Of a stretch of 64,000 nt of DNA, positions 3,332 to 60,806 are shown piece after piece. The position numbers and the translations under genes are program-made. The stretch's first letter is position 1. Every line of letters starts with the position of its first letter. This DNA comes from Minisyncoccia bacterium (GTDB taxonomy: Bacteria; Patescibacteriota; Minisyncoccia; UBA6257; 2-01-FULL-56-20): positions 327,050 to 391,049 of the forward strand of contig JBEKML010000001.1 of the NCBI GenBank assembly GCA_050008535.1, in the 5' to 3' direction. The notes under the pieces are model-generated. The model searched no databases and had not been told where the DNA came from. It saw only the letters and a program-made list of their open reading frames with translations.

Positions 3332-4816
3332 ATGGCAAGCGAAATTCCTGGGAAAAATATAAAACCGCGTCCGCCGATCGTGGTTGTCGTGGGGCACGTT
3401 GACCACGGGAAGACGACGCTTCTGGACTACATCCGGAAGACGACGGTTGCCGCGCGCGAAGCGGGCGGCATTACGCAGGCCGTGGGCGCGTATGAAATTG
3501 TGCATGCGCCGGCCGCCGGAGGCCCGGCGCGGAAGATCACTTTCATTGACACGCCCGGGCACGAGGCGTTCACGGCGATGCGTTCGCGCGGCGCGCAGGC
3601 GGCGGACCTCGCCGTTCTTGTGGTTGCTGCTGACGAGGGCGTGAAGCCGCAGACAAAAGAAGCGATAAAAATTTTGGAAGAGACAAAAACGCCGTTTGTT
3701 GTCGCGCTCAATAAAATTGACAAGGTGCAGGGCGGCAATCTTGAAAAAGCGAAGACGGATCTCGCGAACGCGGGCGTGTTGCTGGAGGGCTACGGAGGGC
3801 AGGTGAGCTATCACGGCGTTTCTGCAAAGACAGGCGAAGGCGTGAGCGATCTTCTGGATCTTATTCTTCTTTCCACCGACGTTGAAAATTTGACCTACGA
3901 TGCGGCCGCCGCCGCGAGTGGATTTGTGCTTGAAGCGCGGCGCGATCCGCGGCGCGGCATTGAAGCGAGCGTAATCGTAAGGGAAGGAACGCTCCATCGC
4001 GGCGATGCAGTAAAGACGCACACCGCAAGCGGCAAAGTGAAGATACTCGAGGATTTTACGGGGAAAGCCGTTGATGTTTTGGAGCCGTCCGCGCCGGCGG
4101 TGATCATCGGTTTTGAGAAGCTGCCGAACGTGGGCGAAGTGTTCGCGGTGGGGGAATTGAAAGAGGCCCAATCGCCGCAGGCGCAGGAGGCGATCGCAAC
4201 GCAGATCGCAAAATCAAAGCCGAATACCTTGAATTTGATCCTTAAGGCCTCCGACGCGGGTTCGCTTGAAGCGCTTTTGGTCGTTTTGAAGAGCGTTGAT
4301 AAACAGGGTGGCAAGGAGATCAACGTGGTTGAGGAATCGGTCGGTGATGTGACCGACGGCGACGTGCGCCGCGCGCAGGCGACAAATGCCACGATCATCG
4401 GGTTCAAAAACAAGGTGGAAAAAGGCGCAAGGAACCTTGCGGATGCACAGACGGTCATGATCATCACTTCAGATGTCGTTTATGATCTTGCGAAGGCCGT
4501 GGAAGATTTTCTTACGGGGAAATTAGGTCCGGCAACGGCGGGCGAACTTGAAGTGCTTGCGGTCTTCAATCAGGAAAAATTGGACAAACAGCTGATTGGC
4601 GGCCGTGTGGAGAAAGGAACATTCCGTGCGAAAGCGTCGTTTGAGATTTTGCGCGGGAGCGGCACGCCGAAAACCTCGCTCGGCACCGGCCGTGCCTTGA
4701 GCTTGCGCGAGAAAAAATCAGAGATCGCGACGGCTGAAAAAGGAAAAGAGATCGGCATCCTCGCGAGCTCGCAGATTGCGATCCAGGTGGGCGATACGCT
4801 CGTCATCCATAAATAA
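3332..4816 (+). CDS. infB: translation initiation factor IF-2 (short form, G domain + C-terminal domains)
   Basis: G1 motif [16 protein letters not shown] and [12 protein letters not shown] shows G4. The ATG at 3332 follows a TTG at 3326. At about 495 aa it lacks the long N-terminal region of typical IF-2. Confidence 0.85.
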
Positions 4817-4835
4817 TTTTGCGAAATAATTTCCC

Positions 4836-5165
4836 ATGCGTTTTTTCCGTTCCGAGCGGGTACAGGCGTTGATCCAGGAGGAGCTTGCGAAAATTATGGT
4901 GCGGGAAGTGGAATTTCCAGACGCACTTCTTACGATTACGAGCGTTGAAGTTGATAAGAAGCTGGACCACGCACGGGTCAATGTGAGCGTTATCCCGTCT
5001 TCCTCGGGGCCTGCGGCGCTCGCCGGACTCACGAAGCGTACGGGCCACCTTCAGCATCTTTTAATGAAAAAGATGAATATCAAACCCATGCCGCGTATCG
5101 CGTTTGCGCTTGATCGCGGCCCCGAAAATGCCGCGGCGGTTGAAAAAGCGCTGTTAAAAAAGTAA
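4836..5165 (+). CDS. rbfA: ribosome-binding factor A
   Basis: Lies immediately downstream of infB (conserved synteny). Size and sequence are RbfA-like (ALIQEELAKIMVREVEFP...VSVIP). Confidence 0.8.
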   Translation: MRFFRSERVQALIQEELAKIMVREVEFPDALLTITSVEVDKKLDHARVNVSVIPSSSGPAALAGLTKRTGHLQHLLMKKMNIKPMPRIAFALDRGPENAAAVEKALLKK

Positions 5166-5176
5166 GATAGGGGCAT

Positions 5177-5251
5177 GGCCACGTAGCCAAGTAGCAAGGC
5201 GAGGGTCTGCAAAACCCTTATACGCGGGTGCGATTCCCGCCGTGGCCTCCA
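5177..5251 (+). tRNA. tRNA-Cys (anticodon GCA) with encoded CCA
   Basis: Acceptor GGCCACG/CGTGGCC. Anticodon stem AGGGT/ACCCT with loop CUGCAAA. The T-loop is atypical (TGCGATT). Ends with CCA. Confidence 0.7.
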
Positions 5252-5253
5252 GG

Positions 5254-5781
5254 ATGAACAAAAGCATGCTCCAAGTAATAATTATCATCATCTTTGTGTT
5301 TCTCGTGGGAGGCGTGATTGGCTATTTTGCCTGGGGGAAAAAACAAACCTCTGTTCCTGGGCAAACGTCAAGCCGGAAAATAACGTATGTGACCCTAAGT
5401 ATAGCGGCGCCGTTTTCCAATGCTGTGCTTACCATTAAAGAAGATGGTTCCATCGCCTATTGGGCCCAGGAGCCCAACCAGGCGAGAATCAAGGATTCCG
5501 GGACTCTGACCCTGCCCCAAATAAAAGAGCTTAACGACTTGATTGAACAAAATAATTTCTTTGAAATGAAAAGTAACAACGATAATCCCACTGGCATGAC
5601 GGACGGTTCCACGTACGCTATTGCCGTTAGTTATGTTTTATCCGGTCAACTAGATGGCAGTGCTGTCCCCATAACATACTTGGTAAGTTGTTATGAACCG
5701 GACTGCGAGTTCGGCTTTTCGCAGATCAGAGACAAAATTCTTAGCCTTTGGGGTAAAGACGTTTTGAATGTCGGTGTTTGA
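5254..5781 (+). CDS. hypothetical membrane-anchored/secreted protein (175 aa)
   Basis: ATG at 5254. N-terminal hydrophobic segment VIIIIIFVFLVGGVIGYFAW. AT-richer than the genome. Lies between two tRNA genes. Confidence 0.45.
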   Translation: MNKSMLQVIIIIIFVFLVGGVIGYFAWGKKQTSVPGQTSSRKITYVTLSIAAPFSNAVLTIKEDGSIAYWAQEPNQARIKDSGTLTLPQIKELNDLIEQNNFFEMKSNNDNPTGMTDGSTYAIAVSYVLSGQLDGSAVPITYLVSCYEPDCEFGFSQIRDKILSLWGKDVLNVGV

Positions 5782-24743: not shown

Positions 24744-27700
24744 ATGCAAAACAAGAAATTCATCGTAGTCGGCGTTGTTATTGGGTGCATCATTATTTTT
24801 GCCCCAAAGGCATTTGCTTCAGATAGATATTATGTAGGTGGAACGGCAAACTGGAGCGCGACTTCAAGTTGGGCTACAACTTCCGGCGGCAGTCCCGGGG
24901 CGTCTATACCGACCCCTGCCGATAATTGCTTTTTTGACGCAAGCTCCAGTCCCACTTCTTATACCGTCACGTTAACTGCCGCGGTCAGCTGTAAAGACAT
25001 TACCGTCGTCAGTCCACCTTCGGGCAATGCGACTATTGGTGTCAATAATTATAATATGGCTGTTTACGGCTCAATGGATTTGGCCACTGGAACGGTTGTC
25101 AGTATAGGTACTTCTGGCGTCTCTTTTGCCGCGACTTCCAGCGTCCAGACTATTAGAACGAGAGGAACGTCCTTTGTCATAGTGTCTTTTACTGGTTCTG
25201 GCGCAACTTTCCGACTGCTTGATAATCTTACAGTAAGTTATCAGATAGGTTTAAGTGCCGGGAGGATATTTGATGCCAATGGCCAGACAGTTATTTTTCC
25301 TAGTTCAACTAATGCTTATGTATCGGGTGATTTTACATTTTATAACCTAACTCGTAATACGAATGCAGCAAATAGGAATCTCTATCTCGGCGGCAATATA
25401 ACTATCACTGGCACCTTAACCTTGAATGGTTATAGTGCCACCACTAGCCGTTCGCTTCTTGTTTCACAAACTTCGGGCGCACAAACTGCGGGCATAACCA
25501 GAACAATAACTCTTTCAGGGGCAAGTGCTACTTTGTCTGTTTCTAATATAGACCTTGAAGATATAGCAGGAGCGGTGGCCAATGGAGCTAGTGCCGCTCT
25601 ATGGGATTTATCGGCTATTTCGGGACTTTCCGGCGATTGCGGTGGAAATAGTGGGATAACTTTTACCAATCCCCAAACCCAATACTATAAACATCCAGGA
25701 ACTGCTAATGCGTCCTGGTCAGGTGCTAATTGGTATGCCTCAGACCATGCTACCCTTCAGCGGGTTCCTTTGCCGCAAGATGATGTTGTATTTAATGTGG
25801 GTGCGTTTGCGGCAACCGGAAAGAAGATCACGATGGATATGCCAAGGGGGGGCAAGAGTATAGATTTTAGCGCGGTTGAGTATACTCCTACTTTTGCCCT
25901 GGATAGCACCAGTAATACCATTTACGGTTCTCTGACATTGGGAACAATGGGCAATAGCAATATTATCGCTATGGGTGGTAACGCTTTCGTTTTCGGAGGC
26001 AGGAGCGCTTACACTTTGAAAAGCAACGGCAATACTTTTTCTTCTGCCGGAAATTGGAGCTTTACTTCAAACGCTCCGGGTGGGTCTTTGACTTTAAAAG
26101 ATAACTTGAATATGGTAGGTGGCACAGCGGTGACGCTGACGACAGCCAATGGAACTTTTAGCGCGGTGGATGGTGCGAACAATTATGCTATTACTACAGG
26201 CAGGATCGGCGTAAGCGCCTCAGGAACCATTGCTCTGGGTTCGGCAACTCATCTATTAACCGGGACGGGAGCGGTGTGGACCGGCACGGGAATAGTAAAT
26301 GCCGGTAGCTCAACGCTTAAATTCACCAATACTGGCACTTCCACGATCTCATTTACGAGTGGAACTAAAACCTACAACAACGTTTGGTTCTCTCGCGGGG
26401 GGAGCACGGCTTCAACCACAATTACCGGAAACAACACCTTTAATGATTTTAAGGATGACGGGAATGCTGCTCACTCAATTCTTTTCACCCACGGAACGAC
26501 GTCCACAGTTCAAACATTCACGGTGACGGGTAATGGTGCGGGAAATGAAATAACCATAAACAGCGATACGGCAGCGACCCATTCGTTAGTAAAATTAGGC
26601 GGGGGGACGATTTCCAGTGATTACTTGAATATCCAACACTCCGTAGCTTCTCCGGTAAATACGTGGTATGCGGGAACCAACAGCATAAATAATCAAGCAG
26701 TGGCAACGGCGGGAAGCGGGTGGATATTCACGAGTCCGCCCGTCCCCGGCGCGCCGGGGACGCCCACCTATACAAGTGTGAGCTCCAGTACGCTTACGGT
26801 GAACTGGGCTTCTTCAACGGGTGCCACCTATTACAAAATGGAACGCGCGACCTCTTCGCAATCCTACCTCCAAATCGCGACCACGAGCGCCCTTTCCTAC
26901 GCCGATACGGGGCTCACCGCGAACACGACGTTCTTTTACCGCGTCCGGGGGACGAACGGCAACGGCGACGGTCCGTACAGCACAAGCTCGAGCATTCTCA
27001 CCTTGCCCGACGTTGTTTCTCCGGCGCCGACCTATGCGAACATAGGGACAAGCACCGTGACCGTGAATTGGACCACTCCGACGGGCGGCGCGGCATCATA
27101 TATCATCCAGCGCGCAACCTCTTCGCAATCGTATGCCCAAGTCGCAACAACAACCGCGATTTTCATAAACGACAGCGGCCTTGCGCAGAGCACCATCTAT
27201 TTCTATCGCGTGCAGGCCGCGAATGCGACGGGGAACGGGCAAGTGAGCGCAAGTTCCAGCGTGACGACCACGGGAGTGAATTCGGCACCCAATGCGCCTT
27301 CGGAAGATTTACCCGCGAATAATTCGCAAGGCATAAGCATAACTCCGGTTTTCGAAATGACTGCGACTGATCCCGAAAGCAACAATTTACAATACAGAGT
27401 GGTTATCTATTCCAACTCCGGCTGTACGGCCGTCGTTCAGACCAATGATCAAAGTGCGTCGCAGACCGGCTGGTCGGGCCAGAATGCTTCCTCGAGCTAT
27501 GAATATATCTCGGGCACCCAAGGGGTCTTCGCGACGCAGTCCGCGCTCTCGGCAAATACCACCTATTACTGGATAGCGAATGCGAAAGATCCCGAAGGAT
27601 CAAATACGTGGGGCGCCTCTTCAACCTGCAACGGCTTTACGACGGCCTACGGCAGCTGGGCCACGGATTCGGGGAATTGGAGCGTGAGCAGCAGCCAGTA

Positions 27701-37833: not shown

Positions 37834-38655
37834 ATGAAGATTTTCACATGGAACGTGAACGGGATACGGTCGATATTTAAGACCACGTTCCGTGACTGGC
37901 TTCAATCCAACGATCCCGACATAGTTTGTCTTCAAGAAATAAAAGCGGATTCCGAAGAGTTGGCGGAGGAGTTTTCCCAAATTGACGGCTATTATGCTTA
38001 TTTCAACTCCTCTTCTTTAAAAAAAGGGCATTCCGGGACGGCTGTCTATACGAAAATAAAACCTGTTTTAGTAGAGACAAAGCTAGGGATTGAACGATTT
38101 GACGATGAGGGACGCTGTCTTAAGTTGATATTTAAGGATTTTATCCTGTTCAATTTTTATATTCCAAACGGTAGCAGGGACAAGCATGACATGCCGTACA
38201 AGCTGGAAGTCTATAAAAAGCTTTTTCCAGTCTTTCGATCGCTTGCGAACAAAAACACGATCCTTGCGGGAGATTTCAATATTGCGCATACGGAACTCGA
38301 TGTTTACCATGCAAAACAGAATCAGAACAATACCATGTTCACTCCTGAAGAGCGGGAGCAAATCACCAAGCTTTTAAGTTTAGGATACGTTGACGCTTTC
38401 AGATACAAATATCCGGAGAAAAAGTCATATACTTGGTGGCCGTATATGAACAACCTGCGCGCGCGGGACATTGGCTGGAGGATAGATTATTTCTTTGTTG
38501 CCAAACCGCTTGAGCCCCTTATCAAAGATGCCTTTACCCAAAGAGAAGTTCTTGGGTCAGATCATGGGCCTTGTGGGATTGCCTTGAACAAATCCGCAGA
38601 GATTGCCGAACGACCGACCTATGCCAAAATAAAATCACCAGCAGAGCTTTTTTGA
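37834..38655 (+). CDS. xth: exodeoxyribonuclease III (AP endonuclease family)
   Basis: MKIFTWNVNGIRS N-terminus, LQEIK, and the C-terminal catalytic region EVLGSDHGP (D and H). Confidence 0.9.
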   Translation: MKIFTWNVNGIRSIFKTTFRDWLQSNDPDIVCLQEIKADSEELAEEFSQIDGYYAYFNSSSLKKGHSGTAVYTKIKPVLVETKLGIERFDDEGRCLKLIFKDFILFNFYIPNGSRDKHDMPYKLEVYKKLFPVFRSLANKNTILAGDFNIAHTELDVYHAKQNQNNTMFTPEEREQITKLLSLGYVDAFRYKYPEKKSYTWWPYMNNLRARDIGWRIDYFFVAKPLEPLIKDAFTQREVLGSDHGPCGIALNKSAEIAERPTYAKIKSPAELF

Positions 38656-38724
38656 AAACCTGTCCGAGATTCGACATCGCCTAGATAGGCCAGCCGGATT
38701 TCATTAAAAAATTCTAAAATGTTT

Positions 38725-38752
38725 CTTGACGGTGACGGCCGATGCGCTATAA
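38725..38752 (+). promoter_or_regulatory. near-consensus sigma70-type promoter (TTGACG-16nt-TATAAT)
   Basis: -35 TTGACG at 38725-38730, 16-nt spacer, -10 TATAAT at 38747-38752. Lies about 300 nt upstream of ftsZ. Confidence 0.5.
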
Positions 38753-38806
38753 TACCCTTGAGATGGGATAGTCTGTAATAGACGACGGACTAGTTCTCAC
38801 TTTCCA

Positions 38807-38843
38807 TGAGAAACGGCCACTTCGGTGGCCGCTTCTCATTTTA
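38807..38843 (+). terminator. hairpin plus U-tract about 55 nt downstream of the promoter (terminator/attenuator of a short transcript)
   Basis: GAGAAACGGCCAC TTCG GTGGCCGCTTCTC followed by ATTTTAT. A second T-run GCGTTTTTTAAGC lies at 38849-38861. Confidence 0.45.
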
Positions 38844-39069
38844 TATCAAGCGTTTTTTAAGCTAATTTTAATCACCTTTTTGCTATGGTTCGTTCGCCGT
38901 GGATCATGGGGCCGTCGTCCATTACAGTTAGGATCTCATCTTTGGAAAGTGAGGAACCGGGTGCAAATCCCGGCGGCTCCACGGCACAGGAGGGCCTCTG
39001 CGAGGCCCTCCTGTTTTGGCCGTATCCACAGGTGGCACGCCAGCGGAAGATTTGTTATTATTGAATCAA

Positions 39070-40372: not shown

Positions 40373-41422
40373 CTACAGCAGTTTTTTCGGCTCGCTTTCC
40401 TTGTCCAACTCGGCGCTCGCGCCGATTTTTAATATGTCTTTGTCTAGCTTTCCGAATTCCTTGTAGGCGGTGTTGTAGGCATTCGTCGTGGTCGTAAGGT
40501 GCGAGCCGATCTTCTCCAAATATTCTTCGTAGCGTTCCAAGTGGCGTTGTAGTTCGCCGACATTTTTCCGGATTTGCTCGGCGGACTTATTGATCTCCAT
40601 CTGCCGGATCCCCTGAAGCGCCATCTGGAGATAGGCGTAGAATGTGGTGGGAGAGACGGGATAGACGCGCTTCTCCGAAGCGTATTGGATAAGGTCGCGT
40701 TCGGCTGCGGCGCCGATTTTGTTTATAAGAAGATCGTAATAGAGCGCTTCGGACGGAATGAACATGAAAGCAAAATCCAGCGTGTCCTCGGCGGGTTTGA
40801 TATATTTCGCAGTTTCGTCAATGCGCGTTTTGAGGTCCATGCGCAGGGCATCTTCGTAGCGCTTGCGTTCGTCATCGGAGGTCGCAGACGCAAAGCGATT
40901 GTAATTTTCCAGGCTGAACTTTGAGTCAATCGGGATCACGTGGTCCTGGTAGAAAATGACCGCGTCCACCTTTGTGCCGTCCGCGAACGGATATTGCAGC
41001 TGGTACGTGCCCGGCGGGAGTACGTTCTTCAAGACCATCTCCAGAAAATATTCTCCGAGCACGCCGCGCTGCTTCGGATTTTTCAAAATATCCTGCAACC
41101 CCTTTAACTGGTCCGCGAGCGAGGCGATCTGCTTCTGGCCCTCGGTCACCTTTGTGATCTCGCCCGTGATCTCTTTCACGATCTGGACGCTCCTGTCCGA
41201 TTGCGCAAACATGGTTTTTGTTGAATCGCCGAGCTGTGCAGTGAGCGTTCGTGAAAGCTCGTTCATCTGCTGCTGGATCTGTTTCTGCTGGTCCTGGATC
41301 TGGTTTTGGATAAGAAGCAATGCCCGATCGTCCTGTTTCGGCTCCGCCGCCCGCGGCCTCCAAAGCCGCCACGCGATTACGGCAAAGAGTACAATAACAA
41401 CGGCAAAAAGGGTGATTTCCAT
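40373..41422 (-). CDS. rmuC: DNA recombination protein RmuC family
   Basis: N-terminal TM helix, long coiled coil, and a C-terminal RmuC-like nuclease-fold region (FAFMFIPSEALYYDLL). Confidence 0.7.
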   Translation of the reverse strand: MEITLFAVVIVLFAVIAWRLWRPRAAEPKQDDRALLLIQNQIQDQQKQIQQQMNELSRTLTAQLGDSTKTMFAQSDRSVQIVKEITGEITKVTEGQKQIASLADQLKGLQDILKNPKQRGVLGEYFLEMVLKNVLPPGTYQLQYPFADGTKVDAVIFYQDHVIPIDSKFSLENYNRFASATSDDERKRYEDALRMDLKTRIDETAKYIKPAEDTLDFAFMFIPSEALYYDLLINKIGAAAERDLIQYASEKRVYPVSPTTFYAYLQMALQGIRQMEINKSAEQIRKNVGELQRHLERYEEYLEKIGSHLTTTTNAYNTAYKEFGKLDKDILKIGASAELDKESEPKKLL

Positions 41423-41496: not shown

Positions 41497-43290
41497 ATGA
41501 ATACAGAGGCGCGTGTTTGCGGGAATTGTAAACGTCAATTCGTCATTGAGCCGGAGGATTTTCAGTTCTACAAAAGAATAGACGTTCCGCCGCCGACGTG
41601 GTGTCCGGAATGCCGCCTTATCCGGCGGCTCATCTGGCGCAATGAGCGCACCCTTTATCGCCGGAAATGCGACGCGCCGGGCCACAACGAGACGCTCATC
41701 TCTTACTACCCGCCCGAAAAGCCCTACAAGGTGTATGACCAAGCGTATTGGTGGTCCGACTCATGGGACGCGGCCGACTATGGGAAGGAGTACGACTTTT
41801 CCCGACCATTTTTTGAACAATTGAAGGAACTTTTTCTGCAAGTGCCGCGTGCCCATCTTTCGGTCAATCATGCGACCATGATCAATAGCGATTATTCTAA
41901 TTGGGCCGGTGATTGCAAGAATTGCTATCTGGTAACGGATGCGGACTACGTTGAGGATTCCGCATATTGCTCAAGTATTTTTAAGTCAAAAGACTGTTTT
42001 GATTGCAACAATATTTCGGAATCCGAGCTTTGTTACGAGGGATATAATCTTGGAAAGTGCTATCGCGTCATTGCTTCGGTGAACTGTCGCGATTCCTCCG
42101 ACGTTCTTTTTTCAAAAGGGCTTGTTGGCTGTTCAAATTGTTTTGGCTGCATCAACTTGCGGAAGAAGGCATACCACATTTTTAACCAACCATATTTAAA
42201 AGAAGAATATTATCAGAAAGTTGGCTCATTATTCGACGGTTCCCGCGAATCTTTCGGACGCATGGTCGCCCAGGCCGAAGAACACTGGCTTCGATATCCT
42301 GCGAAACACCTGCGTGGAATCCGGAACGTAAACTCGTTCGGCGATTATATCTATAACTGCAAAAATGTGACCTACGGGTTCCACGTCACGGGTGCGGAGA
42401 ACAGCAAATATATCACCCTCATACACTCCCCGAACGTGAAAGATTGTTTTGATTACACCGACTGGGGAGACAATGCGCAATTAATATACGAAAGCATTGC
42501 ATGCGGGCTCGGCGTATCAAATCTAAAATTCTGCAACCTTGTGGTGCTCAATTCCAAAAACGCTTCCTATAGTTATTTTTCTTATGGTTGCTCCGATATT
42601 TTCGGCTGTGCCAATCTGCGGAAGAAACAATACTGCATTTTGAATAAACAATATACCAAACAAGAATACGAATCGCTCCTCCCGAAGATCATTGAACATA
42701 TGAATGCGATGCCCTACGTTGATAGCAAGGGGAGAACATATCGCTACGGCGAATTATTCCCTCCGGAACTCTGCGGTTTTGCTTATAACGAAAGCATGGC
42801 GCAGGAGTTCTTTCCGCTGAACCGCGAGGAAGCGCTCGCGAAGGGGTTTGCGTGGCGGGATCCGGATGAGCGCCCTTATCAATCAACGCTTTCTTCCGAC
42901 AAGGTTCCCCAGACCATTCACGAGGTGCCGGATCGGATTACTGATGAAGTTATCGCATGCGCGCACAAAGGCGCTTGCAAACAGAGTTGCACCGTGGCAT
43001 TCCGGATCGTTCCGCCCGAACTCCAGTTTTATCGGAGGATGAACCTTCCGTTGCCCGCTCTTTGTCCGAACTGCCGGCATTATGAGCGGTTGAAGCATCG
43101 GAATCCCCTGAAGCTTTGGCATCGCGAATGTTCCTGTGCAGGATCAAAATCAAAAAGCGGGGTTTATGCCAATACCATTGCCCATTCCCACGGTGCAAAT
43201 CCTTGCCCCAACGAATTTGAAACCAGCTACGCCCCGGATCGACCGGAAATCGTGTATTGCGAACAATGCTATCAGGCAGAGGTGGCCTGA
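41497..43290 (+). CDS. cysteine-rich hypothetical protein (597 aa) with homologous zinc-ribbon modules at both termini
   Basis: N-terminal CGNCKRQF...FQFYKRIDVPPPTWCPECRLIRRLIWRN and C-terminal CTVAFRIVPPELQFYRRMNLPLPALCPNCRHYERLKHRN are clear internal homologs. The central region carries many spaced Cys (DCFDCNN, GCSNCFGC, GCANLRKK). Confidence 0.5.
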   Translation: MNTEARVCGNCKRQFVIEPEDFQFYKRIDVPPPTWCPECRLIRRLIWRNERTLYRRKCDAPGHNETLISYYPPEKPYKVYDQAYWWSDSWDAADYGKEYDFSRPFFEQLKELFLQVPRAHLSVNHATMINSDYSNWAGDCKNCYLVTDADYVEDSAYCSSIFKSKDCFDCNNISESELCYEGYNLGKCYRVIASVNCRDSSDVLFSKGLVGCSNCFGCINLRKKAYHIFNQPYLKEEYYQKVGSLFDGSRESFGRMVAQAEEHWLRYPAKHLRGIRNVNSFGDYIYNCKNVTYGFHVTGAENSKYITLIHSPNVKDCFDYTDWGDNAQLIYESIACGLGVSNLKFCNLVVLNSKNASYSYFSYGCSDIFGCANLRKKQYCILNKQYTKQEYESLLPKIIEHMNAMPYVDSKGRTYRYGELFPPELCGFAYNESMAQEFFPLNREEALAKGFAWRDPDERPYQSTLSSDKVPQTIHEVPDRITDEVIACAHKGACKQSCTVAFRIVPPELQFYRRMNLPLPALCPNCRHYERLKHRNPLKLWHRECSCAGSKSKSGVYANTIAHSHGANPCPNEFETSYAPDRPEIVYCEQCYQAEVA

Positions 43291-55197: not shown

Positions 55198-55410
55198 ATG
55201 GAAAATAAAAAGGATAGGTTTAAGCGTTTGGCTACTGCAAGAACCAATGGGGTTTTGAGGTCGCTTAAAGTGCTTGGCAATTGTGCCAACAGGAGTGCCT
55301 ATGATTACAGCGAAGAGGAAGTTAATAAGATTTTTTCGGAAATTGAACGTCGTGTCCGGGAGATAAAGGCGAAATTTCATTTCGGCAAAAATAAGGAATT
55401 TAAACTGTAA
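55198..55410 (+). CDS. hypothetical small basic protein (70 aa), first gene of the island cassette
   Basis: AT-rich ORF 14 nt upstream of the GHKL gene. No motif recognised; could be a regulator. Confidence 0.4.
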   Translation: MENKKDRFKRLATARTNGVLRSLKVLGNCANRSAYDYSEEEVNKIFSEIERRVREIKAKFHFGKNKEFKL

Positions 55411-55423
55411 ATCTACCGCATCA

Positions 55424-57421
55424 ATGAATCCAACTATTTATGCCGGTCGGCAGTTGCGAAATGACGAAAAGAACCTGAAGGCGATCGCCGATGGCTATGA
55501 GGTAAAACTTGGTCATAAATATTGGTTGGCGGAAGCGCTACAAAAAGATGCGATTCAAAATGGATGGGACGCTGGACATGGGAAGGAATGGAGTATGCGT
55601 TTTGAATTGAAAGGTGCCCAAGCTAGCTTTTTAATGATTCAAGATTCTTGTACTAGCGGGCTAAACGGAACTATATGGAAAGATCAGGAGGAATTGACAT
55701 CGATCTTGGAGAACGGAGATCGGACCGAAAACCTGGCGCATTTTTTGAGTTCCGATTTTAGCACAAAAACAGCGGAAAGCGGCGGAAAACGAGGAAGGGG
55801 TAAGTCCATATTCCTTTTTGCTTCGCAAAATTTGATATTTTATTTTGACTCACAGAGAGCGTCTTCTCGCGATTACGTCGCCGGAGCAATTTTCATAGAT
55901 TCTGACAAGGGAGCTAAGGTGGAAATGACAAGTGGCGATGCTGCTACGAAATACATGAAAGAGAAAACCGGAGAACACTATTCGCCCATTAAGACCAGCG
56001 GCACGCGTATTTTTATCAAGAACCCTCGGGAGGAGGTTGTCGTGGCGATCCGTGATGGCTCCATGATAAATTTCATCGAGAAAAACTGGTGGGAGATAAT
56101 AAAAAAATACGGCGCTCACATCACAGTATGCGATGGCACAGACACGAAGCAGGCGCAGGTCCCGATGTGGTATCGTGAAGACCTTTGTAAAGAAAAAGGG
56201 TTGGAACCGAAGGAATATCCGAACCTTAAGCTATCTTCCGGCGACAATAAATATCGGATTAAAAGAGTTTTTCTCATTTACAACCCAATGGGAGATACCC
56301 CGGAATCGCTCGTAGGCATCTCCATCCAACGAAAGGGGATGAGCATTGAGAGGAGGTCAACAGAAGCGCTGGTCAAGGAAGATGGCATGAGCAAGGTCTA
56401 TGGGTGGGTGGAGATGGAGCCGGAGTTGGAACATGCCATGTATGATCTCGAGGATGTTGAGCATCTTGGTTTTATTTGGACCAAAAAGCCAGCTAAAGAT
56501 TTGTTGGATTTGATAAAAATTCAGATACGAGATTTTGCGAAGGAAGTTAAATTGATCGAGAGCGAGCTGTCAAAGGAACATAAGGCCCATAAGCAAATCG
56601 AAGATGACATTGCAAAGAAGGTAAATAATTTTTTAAAAAACATCGGCTTCTCCGGGTTGGCTCTCACAAAGAGAAAAAGAACGGGAAAGAAAAGGATAGG
56701 AGAAATACCATTGAGGATATCGCTCGCAGATTTTAAATTGGCAGGAGGAAGCCGCCGCGTTAACTACGGAGAAACAATTAATGCGATTGCTGTAGTTGTA
56801 AATGAATTGGATATCTCCCTTCACGCCATCCATAGGACCTGGATTACGGATGAAGGAGGAAGAGTGGCAAAGATAAAAGAGGAGGAGATAGATTTGCATA
56901 AAGGTATTTCGCGGGCGCAGGGATGGGAACGAATGAAAGTTTCGAAGGAGGAGTTTCCTCCGGGTGATTACTCTTTCAAGTCAAAACTCACCCTCTTAGA
57001 AGATACCGACAAAGAACTACCTCGAATTGGAAGACTTGAGAAGGGAAAAGAAATTATTGTCTCAACTGCTTTTTCCGTAGAAAAAGATCCAAAAGCGCAA
57101 GGGTTTATTAAATTCGAACCGATCGTTGATAAGAACAAAGAGCGTTATATCACCACAAGACCGGAGGCCGGCGTTCTGGTCGTGGAATACAACACTCAGC
57201 ATCCGTATATCAGCAATCTTATGCCGACTGAACGCGCTGCTGATTTGGGAAGATTTCTTCTTGAGACAGGGATCATCATTGCGTTCAATGAAGTTATGGC
57301 GGAGGACATTTCTTCTGATAAGCCAAGGGTCTTTACGGACGTCAATGATGATTACGATATAACTAAGATTTTGCCCCGCGTCATGGAAGAGGTGAGTAAA
57401 TTTATGTGGCAATATCAATGA
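55424..57421 (+). CDS. GHKL/Bergerat-fold ATPase (MORC/MutL/Hsp90-like HATPase) with about 470-aa unknown C-terminal region
   Basis: All four Bergerat motifs in order: N-box DAIQNGWDAG (D42,N46,D49,A50), G1 IQDSCTSGLNG, G2 ESGGKRGRGKSIFLF (GxxGxGKS), motif IV SGTRIFI. No similarity to histidine-kinase dimerisation or MutL C-terminal domains was noticed. Confidence 0.6.
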   Translation: MNPTIYAGRQLRNDEKNLKAIADGYEVKLGHKYWLAEALQKDAIQNGWDAGHGKEWSMRFELKGAQASFLMIQDSCTSGLNGTIWKDQEELTSILENGDRTENLAHFLSSDFSTKTAESGGKRGRGKSIFLFASQNLIFYFDSQRASSRDYVAGAIFIDSDKGAKVEMTSGDAATKYMKEKTGEHYSPIKTSGTRIFIKNPREEVVVAIRDGSMINFIEKNWWEIIKKYGAHITVCDGTDTKQAQVPMWYREDLCKEKGLEPKEYPNLKLSSGDNKYRIKRVFLIYNPMGDTPESLVGISIQRKGMSIERRSTEALVKEDGMSKVYGWVEMEPELEHAMYDLEDVEHLGFIWTKKPAKDLLDLIKIQIRDFAKEVKLIESELSKEHKAHKQIEDDIAKKVNNFLKNIGFSGLALTKRKRTGKKRIGEIPLRISLADFKLAGGSRRVNYGETINAIAVVVNELDISLHAIHRTWITDEGGRVAKIKEEEIDLHKGISRAQGWERMKVSKEEFPPGDYSFKSKLTLLEDTDKELPRIGRLEKGKEIIVSTAFSVEKDPKAQGFIKFEPIVDKNKERYITTRPEAGVLVVEYNTQHPYISNLMPTERAADLGRFLLETGIIIAFNEVMAEDISSDKPRVFTDVNDDYDITKILPRVMEEVSKFMWQYQ

Positions 57422-58011
57422 ACATGGCTATCAAATTACGCAGAGGAGAAAATTTTTTCTATGCCCCGGTGACTGGTTTGCTTGATAAAAAAGAGCAGAA
57501 GCGCGCGGACGAAATATACACAAGCGCTAAGAATGCCGTAGAAAAATTAAACAAAACGAGGCGGAGCGGAACGATAGATATTCTTGCCGGGTGGCACCTG
57601 AGAGGTGTTTTAATAAATCAGATTATCCAAAAATTTGGGATAACCGAAACTGAAAAAAAGTATTTTTGGATGATGCTTTATGATGTCTCGGGAATGACGG
57701 TGCCGGACCATATTCGGAAAAACGATTTTCATGTGGCCAGCATTTTAGCAAACTATCCATTAAAGAGATTACAGGAAATCGGGGCTTGGAGTATGTGGCG
57801 AGAGATTATTGGGTCTACTAAGATTGGAAACGATGATAGGGTGGCGCGATGGGTGGTGGACTACATTGTCGAAAAAAAGATAAAAACCAGAGATCAGGCC
57901 AGGCCTTTATTGATGGCGGTTCGAAACAGGCTGAAGAGGATTGATGCTTCTATCTTAAGTAGCGGAGAATTAGCGAATAAATTGCAAGAGGTCGTAATAA
58001 AAAACAATTGA
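57418..58011 (+). CDS. hypothetical protein (197 aa), translationally coupled to the GHKL ATPase
   Basis: Its ATG at 57418 overlaps the GHKL stop (ATGA). Predicted mostly helical. No motif recognised. Confidence 0.5.
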   Translation: MNMAIKLRRGENFFYAPVTGLLDKKEQKRADEIYTSAKNAVEKLNKTRRSGTIDILAGWHLRGVLINQIIQKFGITETEKKYFWMMLYDVSGMTVPDHIRKNDFHVASILANYPLKRLQEIGAWSMWREIIGSTKIGNDDRVARWVVDYIVEKKIKTRDQARPLLMAVRNRLKRIDASILSSGELANKLQEVVIKNN

Positions 58012-58019
58012 AATTATCC

Positions 58020-59132
58020 ATGGAAAGTTCAGCTAAAGAATGTCCCGTCTGCGGCAAGCCGCTGACCCAGGAAGAGTACGACAAGGCTCTTGGTATCTGG
58101 AAGGCCAAGCACGAAGAAATAAAGCATTTGGAAAAGGAGAGGGCCGATCTCAAGCAGCAGGCTGCTTCGCTGAAAAAAGAAAAGGCTGAAGCGCGACGTG
58201 CGGCCAAGCTTCTTATAGCAGAGCAGAAACGGAAATCTGTCGCCGAGCTACGCCAATCACGACTTTTAATGAAAGAGGTATTTAAGAAGCAGCTAGAAAA
58301 CAAAGTCGGCAAAGCGGTTGCCAGCACCAAGAACAAGATGGGACAGCTGAATCGGAGTTGGAAAATCGCCCTGGAGAAAAACGAGAAGCTCCAGCAGGAA
58401 ATCAAACGGCTAAAAGAACAGCGCGAAAAAGGGATTACTCCGCAGATCGAGGGATTACTTGAAGAAGACAAGCTCTTGGCAAAACTGAAGGAATTATATT
58501 GTCCGCCTGATCAGTTTGAGCATCCAGGCAAAGGTGGCGATATTATCCAGACCGTTATGGAGCAAGGCAAACCCGTAGGGAAAATCGTTTATGAGTGTAA
58601 AAAAGTAAGATCATTTAGTCAAAGCCACGTGAAACAGGCATCCGATGCACGCGAATCAAGGAAAGCAGATTTTGCAGTGCTCGTGACCAATGCATTTCCC
58701 GCCAAGAGACAATCCTATTTTGTTTCCAATACGGTATATGTTATTAGTCCCGTAAGCGTTGAAGCCGTAACTTATACGCTACGCGAATTTCTTGTCAGAA
58801 TAGCCTTGCTCCGATTGTCGAATGCGGCAAAAGAGAAAGCCGTCAATGAGATTTACAAATACATGTCCGGAAACGAATATAGCGATAAGGTTAACGGAAT
58901 GGCGTCCCAGCTCTTAACGCTCAGGGGTGATTTGAAATCAGAAATTAACTCGCATTGGCAGATATGGAAAAAGCGCTACGCATCCTATCAAACTCTCTTT
59001 GTGGATCTTGGCACTATAGATTCCCGGCTGAAGAGTTTGCTGGCGCTTGGAGACGGTGACCGAGAAACGCCGAAGCTAGCCGCAGGACAACAAAAAACTT
59101 ATCCTCCACTTGAGGAACTCGAAAGGAAATAA
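58020..59132 (+). CDS. Zn-ribbon / coiled-coil / PD-(D/E)xK nuclease-fold protein
   Basis: N-terminal CPVCGKP. About 130 aa of Lys/Glu-rich heptad-like coiled coil. C-terminal restriction-endonuclease-like core FEHPGKGGDIIQTV...GKIVYECKKV (E, D, ExK motifs). Starts 8 nt after the upstream stop (alternative TTG at 58008 would overlap the stop). Confidence 0.55.
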   Translation: MESSAKECPVCGKPLTQEEYDKALGIWKAKHEEIKHLEKERADLKQQAASLKKEKAEARRAAKLLIAEQKRKSVAELRQSRLLMKEVFKKQLENKVGKAVASTKNKMGQLNRSWKIALEKNEKLQQEIKRLKEQREKGITPQIEGLLEEDKLLAKLKELYCPPDQFEHPGKGGDIIQTVMEQGKPVGKIVYECKKVRSFSQSHVKQASDARESRKADFAVLVTNAFPAKRQSYFVSNTVYVISPVSVEAVTYTLREFLVRIALLRLSNAAKEKAVNEIYKYMSGNEYSDKVNGMASQLLTLRGDLKSEINSHWQIWKKRYASYQTLFVDLGTIDSRLKSLLALGDGDRETPKLAAGQQKTYPPLEELERK

Positions 59133-59189: not shown

Positions 59190-60806
59190 ATGAGAATAAC
59201 GGAATTCAAAATTAAGAATTTTAAATGTATTGGCCCTGAACCAATCACTCTAGACTTCACGGAAGATATTCTTGTTCTTATTGGGCAAAATAATGTTGGA
59301 AAGTCATCAGTGCTAAGGGCCCTTGATTTCTACTTTTCAGGGACTAAGACATTGCCAGAAAAATACTTTTATAACCACCAGCATGACCAAGATCATGCCG
59401 TAGTCATTGAACTAAAATTTAGCGACCTTTCTAGTCAGGATAGGGTTCACCAAGCCGTATCGCCGTATATCTCTACCGATAATTCTTGGATTCTCAGAAA
59501 ATCTTACTATTACGATAGCGATGGTGGAGGTAAATGTGATTACGCCGCTATTGTTGATGGCGCAGAGAAGAAAAATCCAGCGGGCCTGACACAAAACTGC
59601 GACAATCTCTTTGTCGGCGACAAAATGCAAAAGATCTTTGTAGAGGCGGTAAAAGATGTGTCTGATGTGGTGGAGGGGAAAAGCAAATCAACATTTGGAC
59701 AGATATTTAGCATAATCCTTAAGAATGCAGTAGAGGCAACAAGTGAATATACATCACTACTTGATGCGCTCCGCGCATATCAAAATCTTTTCCGGGGCGC
59801 AGGCCAATTATCGCAGATTACGCAAGTGGAAAATACCATCAACGAAAGACTGGCAAGAATAATTAGCGCAAGCAGCAAAATAGATACGGAATCGCCGCAA
59901 GTAGAGAAATTTATGCCAGCACCAAAACTCCTAACAGACGACGGGAGAGGAATCGACATTGATCCTACCGAACAAGGCCATGGCTTACAGCGAGCTTTAA
60001 TATTTGTTTTATTAGAATTACTAGCGGAGACAACTAGTCCCATGACTAAAGAAGTAGGCCCTAGAAACTTATTAATGATTGAAGAACCTGAAATTTATAT
60101 GCATCCGCAAATGCTAAGGAAGATAGCTGATACTCTCTATGAAATTGCTTCACAAGGTAAGGCACAAGTGATCTGCACTACACACTCACCCATTTTCATC
60201 AGAATCGCAGAAAAACAGAAGGCGTTAGCCCGCTTTGTCAGAAAAGAAGATAATTCGCTTACCGTTTTTCAGCAAAAGACGGATATTTTCTCTGGAGCCG
60301 GAGCAACAGAATTAAAGAAACAACTACAAATGATTACCAACTTTGATCCCGCAGTGAACGAGTTATTCTTTGCGAGAAGGGTGGTGCTTTTAGAAGGAGA
60401 TACTGAACTTGCCGTATTTCGTGAGGCTCCAAACTTATTGTTCGCGGGGAACAAAAATAACCTCCGTGATTGTCGGGATACCACTGTTATCAACTGTAGG
60501 GGCAGAAACACCATCCCATTGTTTCAAGAGATTCTAAACCACTTTCAAATTCCTTACGTTGTCATTCACGATACCGAAGGAGAAGATAAGACCAGCGGTA
60601 TAAACGGTAAAATTCTTGGATTACTTGGCGGTGATGAATCAAAACGTAAAATGTTCAGTCCTAATATAGAAGATGGTTTAGGTATTACGGACAGAGGAGG
60701 CAATAAGTCAATCAAAGCCCTGGATCGTATCCAAGAATTGAATGGCCTCGGTCAATTAGAGGGGAAAATAGGAAGTTACATAAGATTCGCTTACAACATT
60801 CCATAG
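59190..60806 (+). CDS. OLD-family nuclease (N-terminal ABC-type ATPase + C-terminal Toprim), class-1-like standalone architecture
   Basis: Walker A GQNNVGKSS, Walker B/D-loop LLMIEEPEIYMHPQ, H-loop VICTTHSP. Toprim Glu VVLLEGDTELAVF and acidic cluster VVIHDTEGED. No adjacent UvrD-like helicase. Confidence 0.75.
   Translation: MRITEFKIKNFKCIGPEPITLDFTEDILVLIGQNNVGKSSVLRALDFYFSGTKTLPEKYFYNHQHDQDHAVVIELKFSDLSSQDRVHQAVSPYISTDNSWILRKSYYYDSDGGGKCDYAAIVDGAEKKNPAGLTQNCDNLFVGDKMQKIFVEAVKDVSDVVEGKSKSTFGQIFSIILKNAVEATSEYTSLLDALRAYQNLFRGAGQLSQITQVENTINERLARIISASSKIDTESPQVEKFMPAPKLLTDDGRGIDIDPTEQGHGLQRALIFVLLELLAETTSPMTKEVGPRNLLMIEEPEIYMHPQMLRKIADTLYEIASQGKAQVICTTHSPIFIRIAEKQKALARFVRKEDNSLTVFQQKTDIFSGAGATELKKQLQMITNFDPAVNELFFARRVVLLEGDTELAVFREAPNLLFAGNKNNLRDCRDTTVINCRGRNTIPLFQEILNHFQIPYVVIHDTEGEDKTSGINGKILGLLGGDESKRKMFSPNIEDGLGITDRGGNKSIKALDRIQELNGLGQLEGKIGSYIRFAYNIP

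What the first reader, a model, noticed from the sequence alone, without database searches (positions are those of the whole stretch)
58020..59132. Zn-ribbon + long coiled coil + C-terminal PD-(D/E)xK core: RmuC-like architecture in a defence context
N-terminal CPVCGKP. About 130 aa of Lys/Glu-rich heptad-like sequence. Then FEHPGKGGDIIQTV-(17)-YECKKV gives the E...D...ExK spacing of the restriction-endonuclease fold. The architecture echoes RmuC (a genuine rmuC lies at 40373-41422 in this window). This copy, however, is AT-rich and sits in the island between a GHKL ATPase and an OLD nuclease. It might correspond to a DUF2130-type family, but I am not certain of that assignment.
Basis: partly seen in the sequence, partly recalled or inferred. 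Interest (0 to 1): 0.65.

Follow-up and report, generated by a model that had tools for sequence, protein, structure and literature searches.

The report
DUF2130 coiled-coil nuclease in defence islet
The gene encodes a member of the uncharacterised DUF2130 family, a predicted DNA-cutting enzyme on a long coiled-coil stalk.

Summary
The ORF at 58020-59132 (+, 370 aa) is real and is a DUF2130 member (PF09903, E 3e-22). Its layout is a lone N-terminal CxxC knuckle, about 120 aa of K/E-rich helix, an alpha-beta-beta-beta-alpha-beta PD-(D/E)xK core, and a helical tail. Across 125 divergent homologs D164, D174, E192, K194 and R255 are invariant, and E149 is kept in 123.

Three details need correcting:
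- It is not a Zn-ribbon: there is one CxxC per chain, in 115 of 125 homologs.
- It is not an RmuC paralog (hhalign probability 7%).

The island (about 55.0-60.8 kb, 42-45% GC against about 55%) encodes a 70-aa protein, a GHKL ATPase (fold match to Hsp90/Topo VI-B, E 6e-11), a 201-aa protein, DUF2130 and OLD.

The small protein, GHKL and 201-aa trio is a widespread cassette that usually lacks DUF2130. DUF2130 is usually solitary. In CPR/DPANN relatives, however, it repeatedly sits directly 3' of three different GHKL cassettes, including PADLOC candidate PDC-M33.

Best reading: a modular nuclease effector recruited to a paraMORC-like conflict system. No function has been tested experimentally.

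The parts
58020..59132 (+). DUF2130-family protein, 370 aa (the finding)
   Evidence: ORF. Pfam PF09903 E 3e-22, 79.6 bits. 478 homologs in the 90% clusters and 2185 among the 50% representatives. AF2 model mean pLDDT 80.5.
58041..58052 (+). Lone CxxC knuckle (C8-P-V-C11), a candidate half Zn site
   Evidence: C8 is kept in 117 of 125 and C11 in 116 of 125 divergent homologs. It always lies at the extreme N-terminus (median 7 residues before it), and only 1 of 117 has a second Cys/His pair nearby. There are weak sub-threshold hits to the Rad50 zinc hook: Pfam 15.2 bits against a cut-off of 24.3, and PDB 6zff E 0.19 with CPVCGxxLTxE aligned. 13 of 125 homologs hit Rad50_zn_hook weakly.
58068..58427 (+). 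K/E-rich helical stalk (residues 17-136), a presumed coiled coil
   Evidence: AF2 helices 17-101 and 107-136. Composition K 20%, E 14%, A 12%, L 12%. The distance from CxxC to the core varies from 69 to 324 aa across the family, median 141. Weak matches to the LmuB, Rad50 and SbcC coiled-coil regions.
58446..58748 (+). PD-(D/E)xK nuclease core (residues about 143-243). Key residues: G145, E149 (58464-58466), D164 (58509-58511), D174 (58539-58541), E192 (58593-58595), K194 (58599-58601), Q206 (58635-58637)
   Evidence: Alpha-beta-beta-beta-alpha-beta topology with pLDDT about 90. D164, D174, E192 and K194 are kept in 125 of 125, E149 in 123, G145 in 124 and Q206 in 110. Mrr_cat hits in 28 of 125 homologs. 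The top weak Foldseek hits are mostly PD-(D/E)xK proteins: Cap4, EndoMS, EcoT38I, McrC.
58749..59132 (+). C-terminal helical region (244-343) with invariant R255 and near-invariant E308, H312, W316 and R319, then a low-confidence tail
55198..55410 (+). 70-aa small protein ('c4'), first gene of the operon
   Evidence: 55-67% identical to the 72-aa genes heading the PDC-M33 cassettes in L007 and L011. It precedes the GHKL gene in 56 of 80 metagenomic loci. It is fused to a DnaA_C HTH in L055. No Pfam family.
55424..57421 (+). 665-aa GHKL ATPase: Bergerat fold plus transducer, then helices and a beta-sandwich
   Evidence: No Pfam hit. Conserved motifs LQKDAIQNxWDA, DxGTTGLxG, GGxRGRGK and GTRI. 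AF2 pLDDT 84.9. Foldseek TRAP1/Hsp90 6e-11, Topo VI-B 6e-8, GyrB 2e-7.
57406..58011 (+). 201-aa protein ('c1'), obligate partner of this GHKL type
   Evidence: It follows the GHKL gene in 69 of 80 metagenomic loci. The 11 loci without it are either cut close to or within the GHKL gene at a contig end, or lack a complete GHKL ORF call. No Pfam or PADLOC family. It overlaps the GHKL stop and ends 8 nt before the DUF2130 ATG.
59190..60806 (+). OLD-family ATPase-Toprim nuclease, 57 nt downstream; last gene of the low-GC islet
   Evidence: PADLOC Old 1.2e-77. Pfam AAA_15 4e-41 plus OLD-like_TOPRIM 3.4e-14.

Best explanation
The ORF encodes a DUF2130-family, metal-dependent PD-(D/E)xK DNA endonuclease. 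The catalytic core (E149, D164, D174, E192-x-K194, Q206) sits at the end of a helical stalk of about 120 residues. The free end of that stalk carries a single CxxC.

Inferred steps:
- Two chains pair through the stalk.
- Their two CxxC motifs jointly bind one Zn, as a Rad50-hook-like clasp. This would give a dimeric nuclease whose two active sites are held at a set distance.
- The protein is a self-contained module used in genetic conflict (defence or mobile elements).
- In this genome it was acquired horizontally as the fourth, co-transcribed gene of a 70-aa, GHKL ATPase and 201-aa operon, which is paraMORC-like.
- It most likely serves as the DNA-cleaving arm of that operon, with the GHKL ATPase sensing or clamping the target DNA.
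- OLD downstream is probably a separate, neighbouring defence gene.

Shown here: family membership, conserved motifs, fold topology, operon layout and recurrence of the layout. Inferred: nuclease activity, Zn-mediated dimerisation, coupling to the GHKL module and a defence role.
For: Family and fold.
- Pfam DUF2130, E 3e-22.
- PD-(D/E)xK topology at pLDDT about 90.
- Invariant D164, D174, E192 and K194 in 125 homologs.
- Mrr_cat hits in 28 of 125.
- Prior in-silico assignment to the superfamily.

CxxC and stalk.
- A lone, N-terminal CxxC in 115 of 125 homologs, with no second ligand pair.
- The CPVCGxxLTxE string aligns with the P. furiosus Rad50 hook.

Operon.
- Gaps are 13 nt, an overlap, 8 nt and 57 nt, with no terminator signal above chance.
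- The islet has low GC.

Recurrence. DUF2130 lies immediately 3', on the same strand, with gaps of at most 47 nt, after three non-orthologous GHKL cassettes. Where the upstream sequence is held, each is headed by the c4 small protein, except L039, where no c4 was found.
- The c2/c1 type: window, L055, L102.
- PADLOC PDC-M33A/B/C: L007, L011, L039, L009.
- A HATPase_c_3 type in a Micrarchaeota genome: L052.

Effector slot. In other c2/c1 loci the same slot holds other PD-(D/E)xK nucleases (PDDEXK_1 in L096, Shedu SduA_C in L101) or a C5 DNA methyltransferase (16 loci).

Precedent.
- GHKL plus PD-(D/E)xK in defence: VcSduA/paraMORC3, where both activities are required (PMC12137116).
- paraMORCs in R-M operons with Dcm, Vsr and TIR (PMC2292703).
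Against: - Most DUF2130 genes are solitary. Only 2 of 40 species-level loci have a GHKL cassette, and the other loci share almost no neighbour families with one another.
- Most c2/c1 cassettes lack DUF2130. Only 1 of 55 metagenomic loci with enough flank has it. Neither partner therefore needs the other.
- The GHKL-linked cases are concentrated in CPR/DPANN and may share ancestry, so they are not fully independent events.
- The zinc-hook similarity is below Pfam's threshold and could be a generic CxxC knuckle plus coiled-coil bias.
- No experiment exists for any DUF2130 protein.
Confidence: 0.45

Rival explanations
1. DUF2130 is an autonomous single-gene nuclease system, comparable to Shield subtype I ShdA or a class-1 OLD. 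It merely sits beside the GHKL cassette and OLD because defence genes cluster. It senses and cuts on its own.
For: - 38 of 40 species-level loci have no GHKL cassette, and the solitary loci share almost no neighbour families.
- In L013, a 69%-identical copy has no GHKL cassette.
- Neighbours across loci are a changing mix of integrases, methyltransferases, GmrSD, TIR, Cas2, BsoBI and TrwC.
- The gene after DUF2130 is also variable: OLD, DUF4238, TIR, RNase HII-like.
- ShdA shows that a stalk-plus-PD-(D/E)xK protein can defend alone (PMC10270631).
Against: - Position, orientation and gaps of 4-47 nt directly after three different GHKL cassettes are constant.
- DUF2130 stays 70-80% identical while the cassette in front of it is swapped.
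- Other nucleases occupy the same slot in sister loci.
Confidence: 0.33
2. It is a DNA recombination, repair or mobile-element maintenance factor, functionally analogous to RmuC, and not an immune effector. It might process DNA ends or structures during plasmid or element establishment.
For: - Distant DUF2130 genes lie on 43 plasmids, mostly rhizobial and many conjugative. In Mesorhizobium pMspAR07b the gene sits between ParA/WGR and DUF736/ArdC, near the relaxase.
- Seven Helicobacter heilmannii prophages carry one near ParA.
- Some chromosomal neighbours are housekeeping genes such as RecA and GatB.
- The Rad50-hook-like N-terminus recalls DNA-end tethering.
Against: - The window copy lies in a low-GC islet with OLD and a GHKL cassette, and the genome already has a canonical RmuC.
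- The plasmid and phage homologs are only 25-28% identical over the core.
- Distribution is patchy and there is no conserved synteny.
Confidence: 0.15
3. It is a non-catalytic coiled-coil scaffold or tether with a degenerate nuclease fold.
For: No significant structural match to an active nuclease. Six of 125 homologs weakly hit the 'inactive REase' family NA-iREase1.
Against: All canonical catalytic residues are invariant across 125 homologs down to 20% identity, which argues for retained catalysis.
Confidence: 0.04

Closest known systems
DUF2130 (Pfam PF09903 / COG4487)
   Same: Direct member: 79.6 bits against a cut-off of 26.7. It shares the invariant E, D, D and ExK residues, and the family was assigned in silico to the PD-(D/E)xK superfamily in 2012.
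   Different: Nothing differs at family level. The Pfam model covers only residues 119-333, so the N-terminal CxxC and most of the stalk are not part of the described domain. No function is known for any member.
RmuC (PF02646), including the copy at window 40373-41422
   Same: Helical or coiled region followed by a PD-(D/E)xK core. There is a similar motif just before the core (TPQxxGLxxE against NPKQRGVLGE), and D and (D/E)xK are in the same register.
   Different: - No cross-hit to each other's Pfam models.
- hhalign probability 7%.
- RmuC has an N-terminal hydrophobic anchor and no CxxC; DUF2130 has CxxC and no anchor.
- RmuC is a conserved chromosomal gene at host GC; DUF2130 is in a low-GC islet.
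Shield ShdA (RmuC-domain defence nuclease, PMC10270631)
   Same: A stalk or anchor plus a PD-(D/E)xK nuclease. It works as a core effector, occurs alone or with variable partner genes, and can be embedded in larger defence operons such as DISARM.
   Different: ShdA carries an RmuC domain and a membrane anchor. DUF2130 carries neither and has no PADLOC hit beyond coiled-coil noise. ShdA has been tested experimentally; DUF2130 has not.
paraMORC / GHKL-nuclease conflict systems (Iyer 2008; VcSduA, Shedu type I-D)
   Same: A GHKL-plus-transducer ATPase is linked to a PD-(D/E)xK nuclease. Relatives also link to Dcm/Vsr (L007, L011), a C5 methyltransferase (16 loci) and TIR (L052, L055).
   Different: Here the nuclease is a separate gene of a different family (DUF2130, not DUF4263). 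It is optional, and the cassette has two extra small partners (c4, c1) that are not described. The window has no methyltransferase.
PADLOC candidate system PDC-M33 (A/B/C)
   Same: In L007, L011 and L039 the genes directly upstream of 70-80% identical DUF2130 copies are PDC-M33A (a GHKL-like protein), B and C (DUF6339). In L007 and L011 they are headed by the same c4 small protein.
   Different: The window's own GHKL and 201-aa proteins do not match the PDC-M33 models. They are only remotely related (GHKL HMM against M33A, E 2e-4). PDC-M33 as defined does not include DUF2130 or c4.
Rad50 / SbcC zinc hook
   Same: A single CxxC adjoining a long coiled coil. The local string CPVCGxxLTxE matches the P. 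furiosus Rad50 hook.
   Different: The CxxC is at the chain terminus with only one helical arm, not at the apex of an antiparallel coiled coil. There is no ABC ATPase head. The Pfam score is below threshold (15.2 against 24.3 bits).

Membership tests
DUF2130 (PF09903) | Match to the family HMM above the curated gathering score | tested here: met
   79.6 bits against 26.7, E 3e-22, residues 119-333. 96 of 125 divergent homologs also match.
DUF2130 (PF09903) | Family-wide conserved residues are present in this copy | tested here: met
   G145, E149, D164, D174, E192, K194, Q206 and R255 are all present.
PD-(D/E)xK nuclease superfamily | Alpha-beta-beta-beta-alpha-beta core topology | tested here: met
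   AF2 model: H149-160, E165-167, E175-181, E184-194, H201-214, E218-223, with pLDDT about 90.
PD-(D/E)xK nuclease superfamily | Conserved E...D...(D/E)xK catalytic signature | tested here: met
E149 in 123 of 125; D174, E192 and K194 in 125 of 125.
PD-(D/E)xK nuclease superfamily | Significant structural or sequence match to a solved or curated member | tested here: inconclusive
PD-(D/E)xK nuclease superfamily | Metal-dependent phosphodiester cleavage | not testable with these tools
   Needs purified protein and D174A, E192A and K194A controls.
RmuC (PF02646) | Match to the RmuC HMM or specific homology to RmuC | tested here: not met
   No RmuC hit at E<=1. BLASTP E 0.26. hhalign probability 1-7%.
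RmuC (PF02646) | N-terminal hydrophobic membrane anchor | tested here: not met
   The window RmuC starts MEITLFAVVIVLFAVIAWRLW. DUF2130 starts MESSAKECPVCGKP, with no hydrophobic segment.
Zinc ribbon | Two Cys/His knuckles (four ligands) within one chain | tested here: not met
   Only C8 and C11 are present. H32 and H36 are not conserved. Only 1 of 117 homologs has a second pair within reach.
Rad50-type zinc hook (PF04423) | HMM match above threshold | tested here: not met
   15.2 bits against a cut-off of 24.3. 13 of 125 homologs hit weakly, best E 0.006.
Rad50-type zinc hook (PF04423) | CxxC at the apex of an antiparallel coiled coil, binding Zn between two chains | not testable with these tools
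   The CxxC is followed by a single helix only. Intermolecular Zn binding needs multimer modelling or metal analysis.
paraMORC-type GHKL conflict/R-M system (operon level) | GHKL ATPase with transducer (S5-like) domain | tested here: met
   Foldseek hits to Hsp90/TRAP1, Topo VI-B, GyrB and Topo II ATPase-plus-transducer, E 6e-11 to 1e-5. Bergerat motifs are conserved.
paraMORC-type GHKL conflict/R-M system (operon level) | Linked nuclease gene | tested here: met
   DUF2130 lies 8 nt after the 201-aa gene. Sister loci carry PDDEXK_1 or SduA_C in the same slot.
paraMORC-type GHKL conflict/R-M system (operon level) | Linked DNA methyltransferase | tested here: not met
   There is none in the window islet. 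One is present in relatives: a C5 methyltransferase in 16 loci and Dcm plus Vsr in L007 and L011.
PADLOC PDC-M33 | Matches to the M33A/B/C models | tested here: not met
   Window proteins have no M33 hits. The L007 proteins match at 3.6e-140, 2.1e-61 and 2.6e-38.

The most novel reading that the evidence does not exclude
DUF2130 is one of several interchangeable nuclease effectors of a previously undescribed, widespread family of restriction-like systems. The core of these systems is a conserved small protein of about 70 aa, a divergent GHKL ATPase and one or two small partners; one branch also carries a C5 methyltransferase. Its lone CxxC plus variable-length coiled coil would form an intermolecular Zn clasp, a 'half Rad50 hook'. 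That clasp would set the spacing of two nuclease heads or tether them to the ATPase clamp.
Probability: 0.25. Interest if true: 0.6.

Novelty: new member of a known kind. Interest (0 to 1): 0.4.

Why it matters
DUF2130 is a sizeable family: 2185 cluster representatives at E<=1e-3. It has been listed as a PD-(D/E)xK since 2012 but has no known role. This locus and its relatives give it a concrete, testable context: the 3' gene of GHKL-ATPase cassettes, including PADLOC candidate PDC-M33, in defence islets of CPR bacteria and DPANN archaea, whose immune repertoires are poorly known. It also highlights an unannotated three-gene GHKL cassette with no Pfam families, at least 392 metagenomic relatives and a methyltransferase-linked branch. 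If the Zn-clasped coiled-coil dimer is real, it would be a compact way to position two nuclease heads, comparable to how Rad50/SbcC use the hook.

Tried and rejected
Searches that found nothing useful.
- PDB sequence searches with the single protein and with two profiles gave only coiled-coil noise.
- Foldseek against PDB gave no significant hit for DUF2130.
- Foldseek against BFVD gave one significant hit, an uncharacterised Megaviridae protein (E 4e-6), and was uninformative.
- Literature searches for DUF2130, COG4487, DUF6339 and PDC-M33 found no functional study.

RmuC paralogy: rejected after BLASTP, sequence-profile and profile-profile tests.

Zn-ribbon or C2H2 reading: rejected. H32 and H36 are not conserved, and no second Cys pair exists.

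Is the 64-aa ORF before DUF2130 in L014 a c4 homolog, making a two-gene c4-DUF2130 core? No similarity was found.

Cassette swapping through conserved nucleotide flanks: blastn similarity between the window and L007, L009, L011, L013 and L039 stops at the DUF2130 gene borders.

Promoter and terminator scan of the islet: counts were at or below shuffled expectation, so there are no internal boundaries to report.

Mobility marks: there is no tRNA, integrase or flanking repeat at the islet.

DUF2130 as a core gene of the c2/c1 GHKL cassette: rejected, because it is present in only 1 of 55 informative metagenomic loci.
Full report
**Observation.** The ORF is real. It runs 58008..59132 on the + strand, and homologs begin at the ATG at 58020, giving 370 aa. 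It starts MESSAKECPVCGKP. Residues 17-136 are rich in K (20%), E (14%), A and L. The strings FEHPGKGGDIIQTV and YECKKV are present. The 55-61 kb stretch has GC 0.42-0.45, against about 0.55 upstream and 0.62 downstream. The rmuC at 40373-41422 (-) is genuine (Pfam RmuC, E 1.2e-55). The next gene, 59190-60806, is an OLD-family ATPase-Toprim protein (PADLOC Old 1.2e-77; Pfam AAA_15 and OLD-like_TOPRIM).

**Family.** The protein matches Pfam DUF2130 (PF09903) at 79.6 bits, against a cut-off of 26.7 (E 3e-22, residues 119-333). NCBI's name for the identical protein is 'DUF2130 domain-containing protein [Minisyncoccia bacterium]', so the window comes from a CPR bacterium. The family is large: 478 hits among the 90% clusters, and 2185 representatives at E<=1e-3 among the 50% clusters. 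The only relevant literature mention is one row in the Steczkiewicz et al. 2012 census of PD-(D/E)xK families. It reads function 'Unknown', COG4487, with the source of the assignment given as Pfam.

**Anatomy.** An AlphaFold2 model built on 41 homologs has mean pLDDT 80.5, and about 90 in the C-terminal domain.
- A tiny beta-knuckle at residues 6-15.
- Helices 17-101 and 107-136.
- A core of helix 149-160, strands 165-167, 175-181 and 184-194, helix 201-214 and strand 218-223. This is the alpha-beta-beta-beta-alpha-beta order of the restriction-endonuclease fold.
- Helices out to residue 343.

I aligned 125 full-length representatives, which are 20-53% identical to the query.
- D164, D174, E192, K194 and R255 are invariant.
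- G145 is kept in 124, E149 in 123 and Q206 in 110.
- 28 of these homologs also hit Pfam Mrr_cat, best E 2.8e-5.

1. The conserved acidic residue of helix 1 is E149, in the GLLEE motif. It is not E167 in FEHPG, which varies. D164 is an additional invariant Asp.
2. The N-terminus is not a zinc ribbon.
   - There is a single CxxC (C8, C11), kept in 115 of 125 homologs.
   - It always lies at the extreme N-terminus, with a median of 7 residues before it.
   - Only 1 of 117 homologs has any second Cys/His pair nearby.
   - H32 and H36 are not conserved.
   - The local string CPVCGxxLTxE aligns with the Pyrococcus Rad50 zinc hook (PDB 6zff, E 0.19). Weak hits point the same way: Pfam Rad50_zn_hook (15.2 bits against 24.3), NCBIfam Rad50 (2.6e-6) and PADLOC LmuB (4.6e-5).
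   - These scores are sub-threshold and partly driven by coiled-coil composition.
   - A lone CxxC next to a long helix can complete a four-ligand Zn site only between chains. I therefore infer a hook-like clasp of a coiled-coil dimer. This is inference only.
   - The spacer between CxxC and the core varies from 69 to 324 residues across the family, as expected for a stalk.
3. RmuC is an architectural analogue, not a paralog.
   - BLASTP E 0.26.
   - hhalign probability is 1-2% against the single sequence, and 7% (E 0.005) between a 125-sequence DUF2130 profile and a 27-sequence RmuC profile.
   - That alignment covers only TPQxxGLxxE against NPKQRGVLGE and runs on to the first Asp.
   - Neither protein hits the other's Pfam model.
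   - RmuC has an N-terminal hydrophobic anchor; DUF2130 does not.

**The operon.** Five co-directional genes fill the low-GC islet:
- a 70-aa protein (55198-55410);
- a 665-aa protein (55424-57421);
- a 201-aa protein (57406-58011);
- DUF2130 (58020-59132);
- OLD (59190-60806).

The gaps are 13 nt, an overlap, 8 nt and 57 nt. There is no terminator or promoter signal above shuffled expectation.

The 665-aa protein has no Pfam, NCBIfam or PDB sequence match. Its 36-sequence alignment conserves Bergerat-type motifs: LQKDAIQNxWDA, DxGTTGLxG, GGxRGRGK and GTRI. Its model (pLDDT 84.9) matches Hsp90/TRAP1 (6e-11), Topo VI-B, GyrB and Topo II ATPase-plus-transducer modules, followed by a beta-sandwich. 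A 201-aa gene separates it from the finding.

**What travels with what.**

*Close DUF2130 relatives (63-80% identity) from other CPR genomes.* They sit at the 3' end of a different cassette: a 72-aa gene, a 623-aa gene, a 282-aa gene and DUF6339, then DUF2130. In L007 and L011 this is preceded by a serine recombinase, Dcm and Vsr. The three middle genes are PADLOC candidate PDC-M33A/B/C (3.6e-140, 2.1e-61, 2.6e-38). M33A carries GHKL motifs and is remotely similar to the window's GHKL (E 2e-4). The 72-aa gene is 55-67% identical to the window's 70-aa gene.

*A Micrarchaeota locus (L052).* It has the same small protein, a Pfam-detectable HATPase_c_3 protein, a 200-aa gene, DUF2130 and then a TIR gene.

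*L055.* It repeats the window's arrangement, followed by a 137-aa gene and ThsB-TIR.

*80 metagenomic loci with the window-type GHKL (392 relatives confirmed)*.
- The 201-aa partner follows in 69. The 11 loci without it are either cut close to or within the GHKL gene at a contig end, or lack a complete GHKL ORF call.
- The small protein precedes in 56.
- DUF2130 follows in only one (L102).
- Of 55 loci with enough flank, 16 (a distant branch) carry a C5 DNA methyltransferase next.
- Others carry PDDEXK_1, a Shedu SduA_C nuclease, a trypsin-like protease or HTH proteins.

*40 species-level DUF2130 loci from GTDB genomes.* These include Ignavibacteria, Acidobacteriota, Chloroflexota and archaea. 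Only two are GHKL-linked. The rest share almost no neighbour families with one another. Their neighbours mix integrases, methyltransferases, GmrSD, TIR, Cas2, BsoBI and TrwB/TrwC with housekeeping genes.

*Mobile elements.* Distant DUF2130 genes (25-28% identity) also occur on 43 plasmids. In a conjugative Mesorhizobium plasmid the gene lies between ParA/WGR and DUF736/ArdC. Seven Helicobacter heilmannii prophages also carry one.

**Interpretation.** Both modules can stand alone. The small-protein, GHKL and 201-aa trio is a self-sufficient cassette, and DUF2130 is mostly a solitary, patchily distributed gene in variable regions. Even so, DUF2130 is found directly 3', on the same strand and with gaps of at most 47 nt, after three non-orthologous GHKL cassettes. 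Where the upstream sequence is held, these are headed by the shared small protein, apart from L039, where none was found. The same slot in sister loci holds other PD-(D/E)xK nucleases.

This fits the known theme of GHKL ATPases working with nucleases in restriction-like systems:
- paraMORCs with Dcm, Vsr and TIR (Iyer et al. 2008);
- VcSduA, where both GHKL ATPase and PD-(D/E)xK activities are needed for phage defence;
- Shield, where a stalked PD-(D/E)xK nuclease (ShdA) is a core effector used alone, with partners, or inside DISARM operons.

My best reading (0.45) is that DUF2130 is a modular dimeric nuclease effector, recruited here as the cutting arm of the GHKL cassette. The main rival (0.33) is that it is an independent single-gene unit that merely clusters with other defence genes. 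A recombination or mobile-element maintenance role is less likely for this copy (0.15). A non-catalytic scaffold is unlikely, given the invariant catalytic residues (0.04).

**Novelty and score.** The finding itself is a correct spotting of a known, uncharacterised family with a previously predicted fold, so it is a new member of a known kind. Three things add some interest:
- the defence-islet context in a CPR genome;
- the recurrent coupling to GHKL cassettes, including PDC-M33;
- the lone-CxxC stalk.

None of this has been tested experimentally, and the coupling is facultative. I score interest at 0.4.

Noticed in passing
window 55198-58011; loci L055-L137: The 70-aa, GHKL (665 aa) and 201-aa trio is a recurrent three-gene cassette with no Pfam, NCBIfam or PADLOC families. 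At least 392 metagenomic relatives exist. One distant branch (16 loci) carries a C5 cytosine methyltransferase of about 457 aa as a fourth gene, which suggests an undescribed GHKL-based restriction-modification-like system.
   Followed up: partly
window 55198-55410; L007 6263-6481; L011 6239-6457; L052 7557-7790; L055 7416-7994: The small 'c4' protein (FKRLA..R...L..L..LGN..N...Y.Y.....KIF..IE) heads three non-orthologous GHKL cassette types, including PADLOC PDC-M33. In L055 it is fused to a DnaA_C helix-turn-helix, which hints at a shared regulator or adaptor.
   Followed up: partly
downstream of DUF2130: window 59190-60806; L011 11120-12442; L013 11181-12689; L052 11253-11987; L055 12484-13095: The gene right after DUF2130 changes from locus to locus and is often a known defence-type protein: OLD, DUF4238, an RNase HII-like 502-aa protein, or TIR/ThsB-like. 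Most gaps are only 10-57 nt, but in L055 a 137-aa gene lies between DUF2130 and the TIR gene. It is unclear whether these are cargo at a hotspot or alternative partners.
   Followed up: no
window 137-1579 (+), 1560-3115 (-), tRNA-Ser 3177-3264 (-): An ORF resembles the serine recombinase that flanks the PDC-M33-DUF2130 island in L007 (71.5% nucleotide identity over 1.1 kb). It is followed by a low-GC stretch (42.6% at 2-3 kb) ending at a tRNA-Ser. This may be a separate integrated element at the start of the window.
   Followed up: no
L039 7247-8359; L102 6980-9017: The GHKL genes next to DUF2130 in these two loci appear split or truncated (a 370-aa fragment in L039; 279 plus 410 aa in L102). 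This could be decay of the ATPase with DUF2130 still intact, or assembly errors.
   Followed up: no
L139 (Mesorhizobium pMspAR07b) 4437-5732; L138 (Helicobacter heilmannii prophage) 4497-5765: Distant DUF2130 genes sit on conjugative rhizobial plasmids between ParA/WGR and DUF736/ArdC, near the relaxase, and in prophages near ParA. This setting differs from the defence islet and suggests that some family members serve mobile elements.
   Followed up: partly
window 41497-43290 (+): A 597-aa, very Cys-rich ORF with many CxxC pairs lies next to rmuC. It was not examined.
   Followed up: no
window 25001-26000, 38001-39000, 42001-43000: Other 1-kb bins have GC well below the roughly 55% background (0.45, 0.44, 0.47). 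They were not examined. The 38-39 kb bin contains tRNA-Pro (38908-38982).
   Followed up: no
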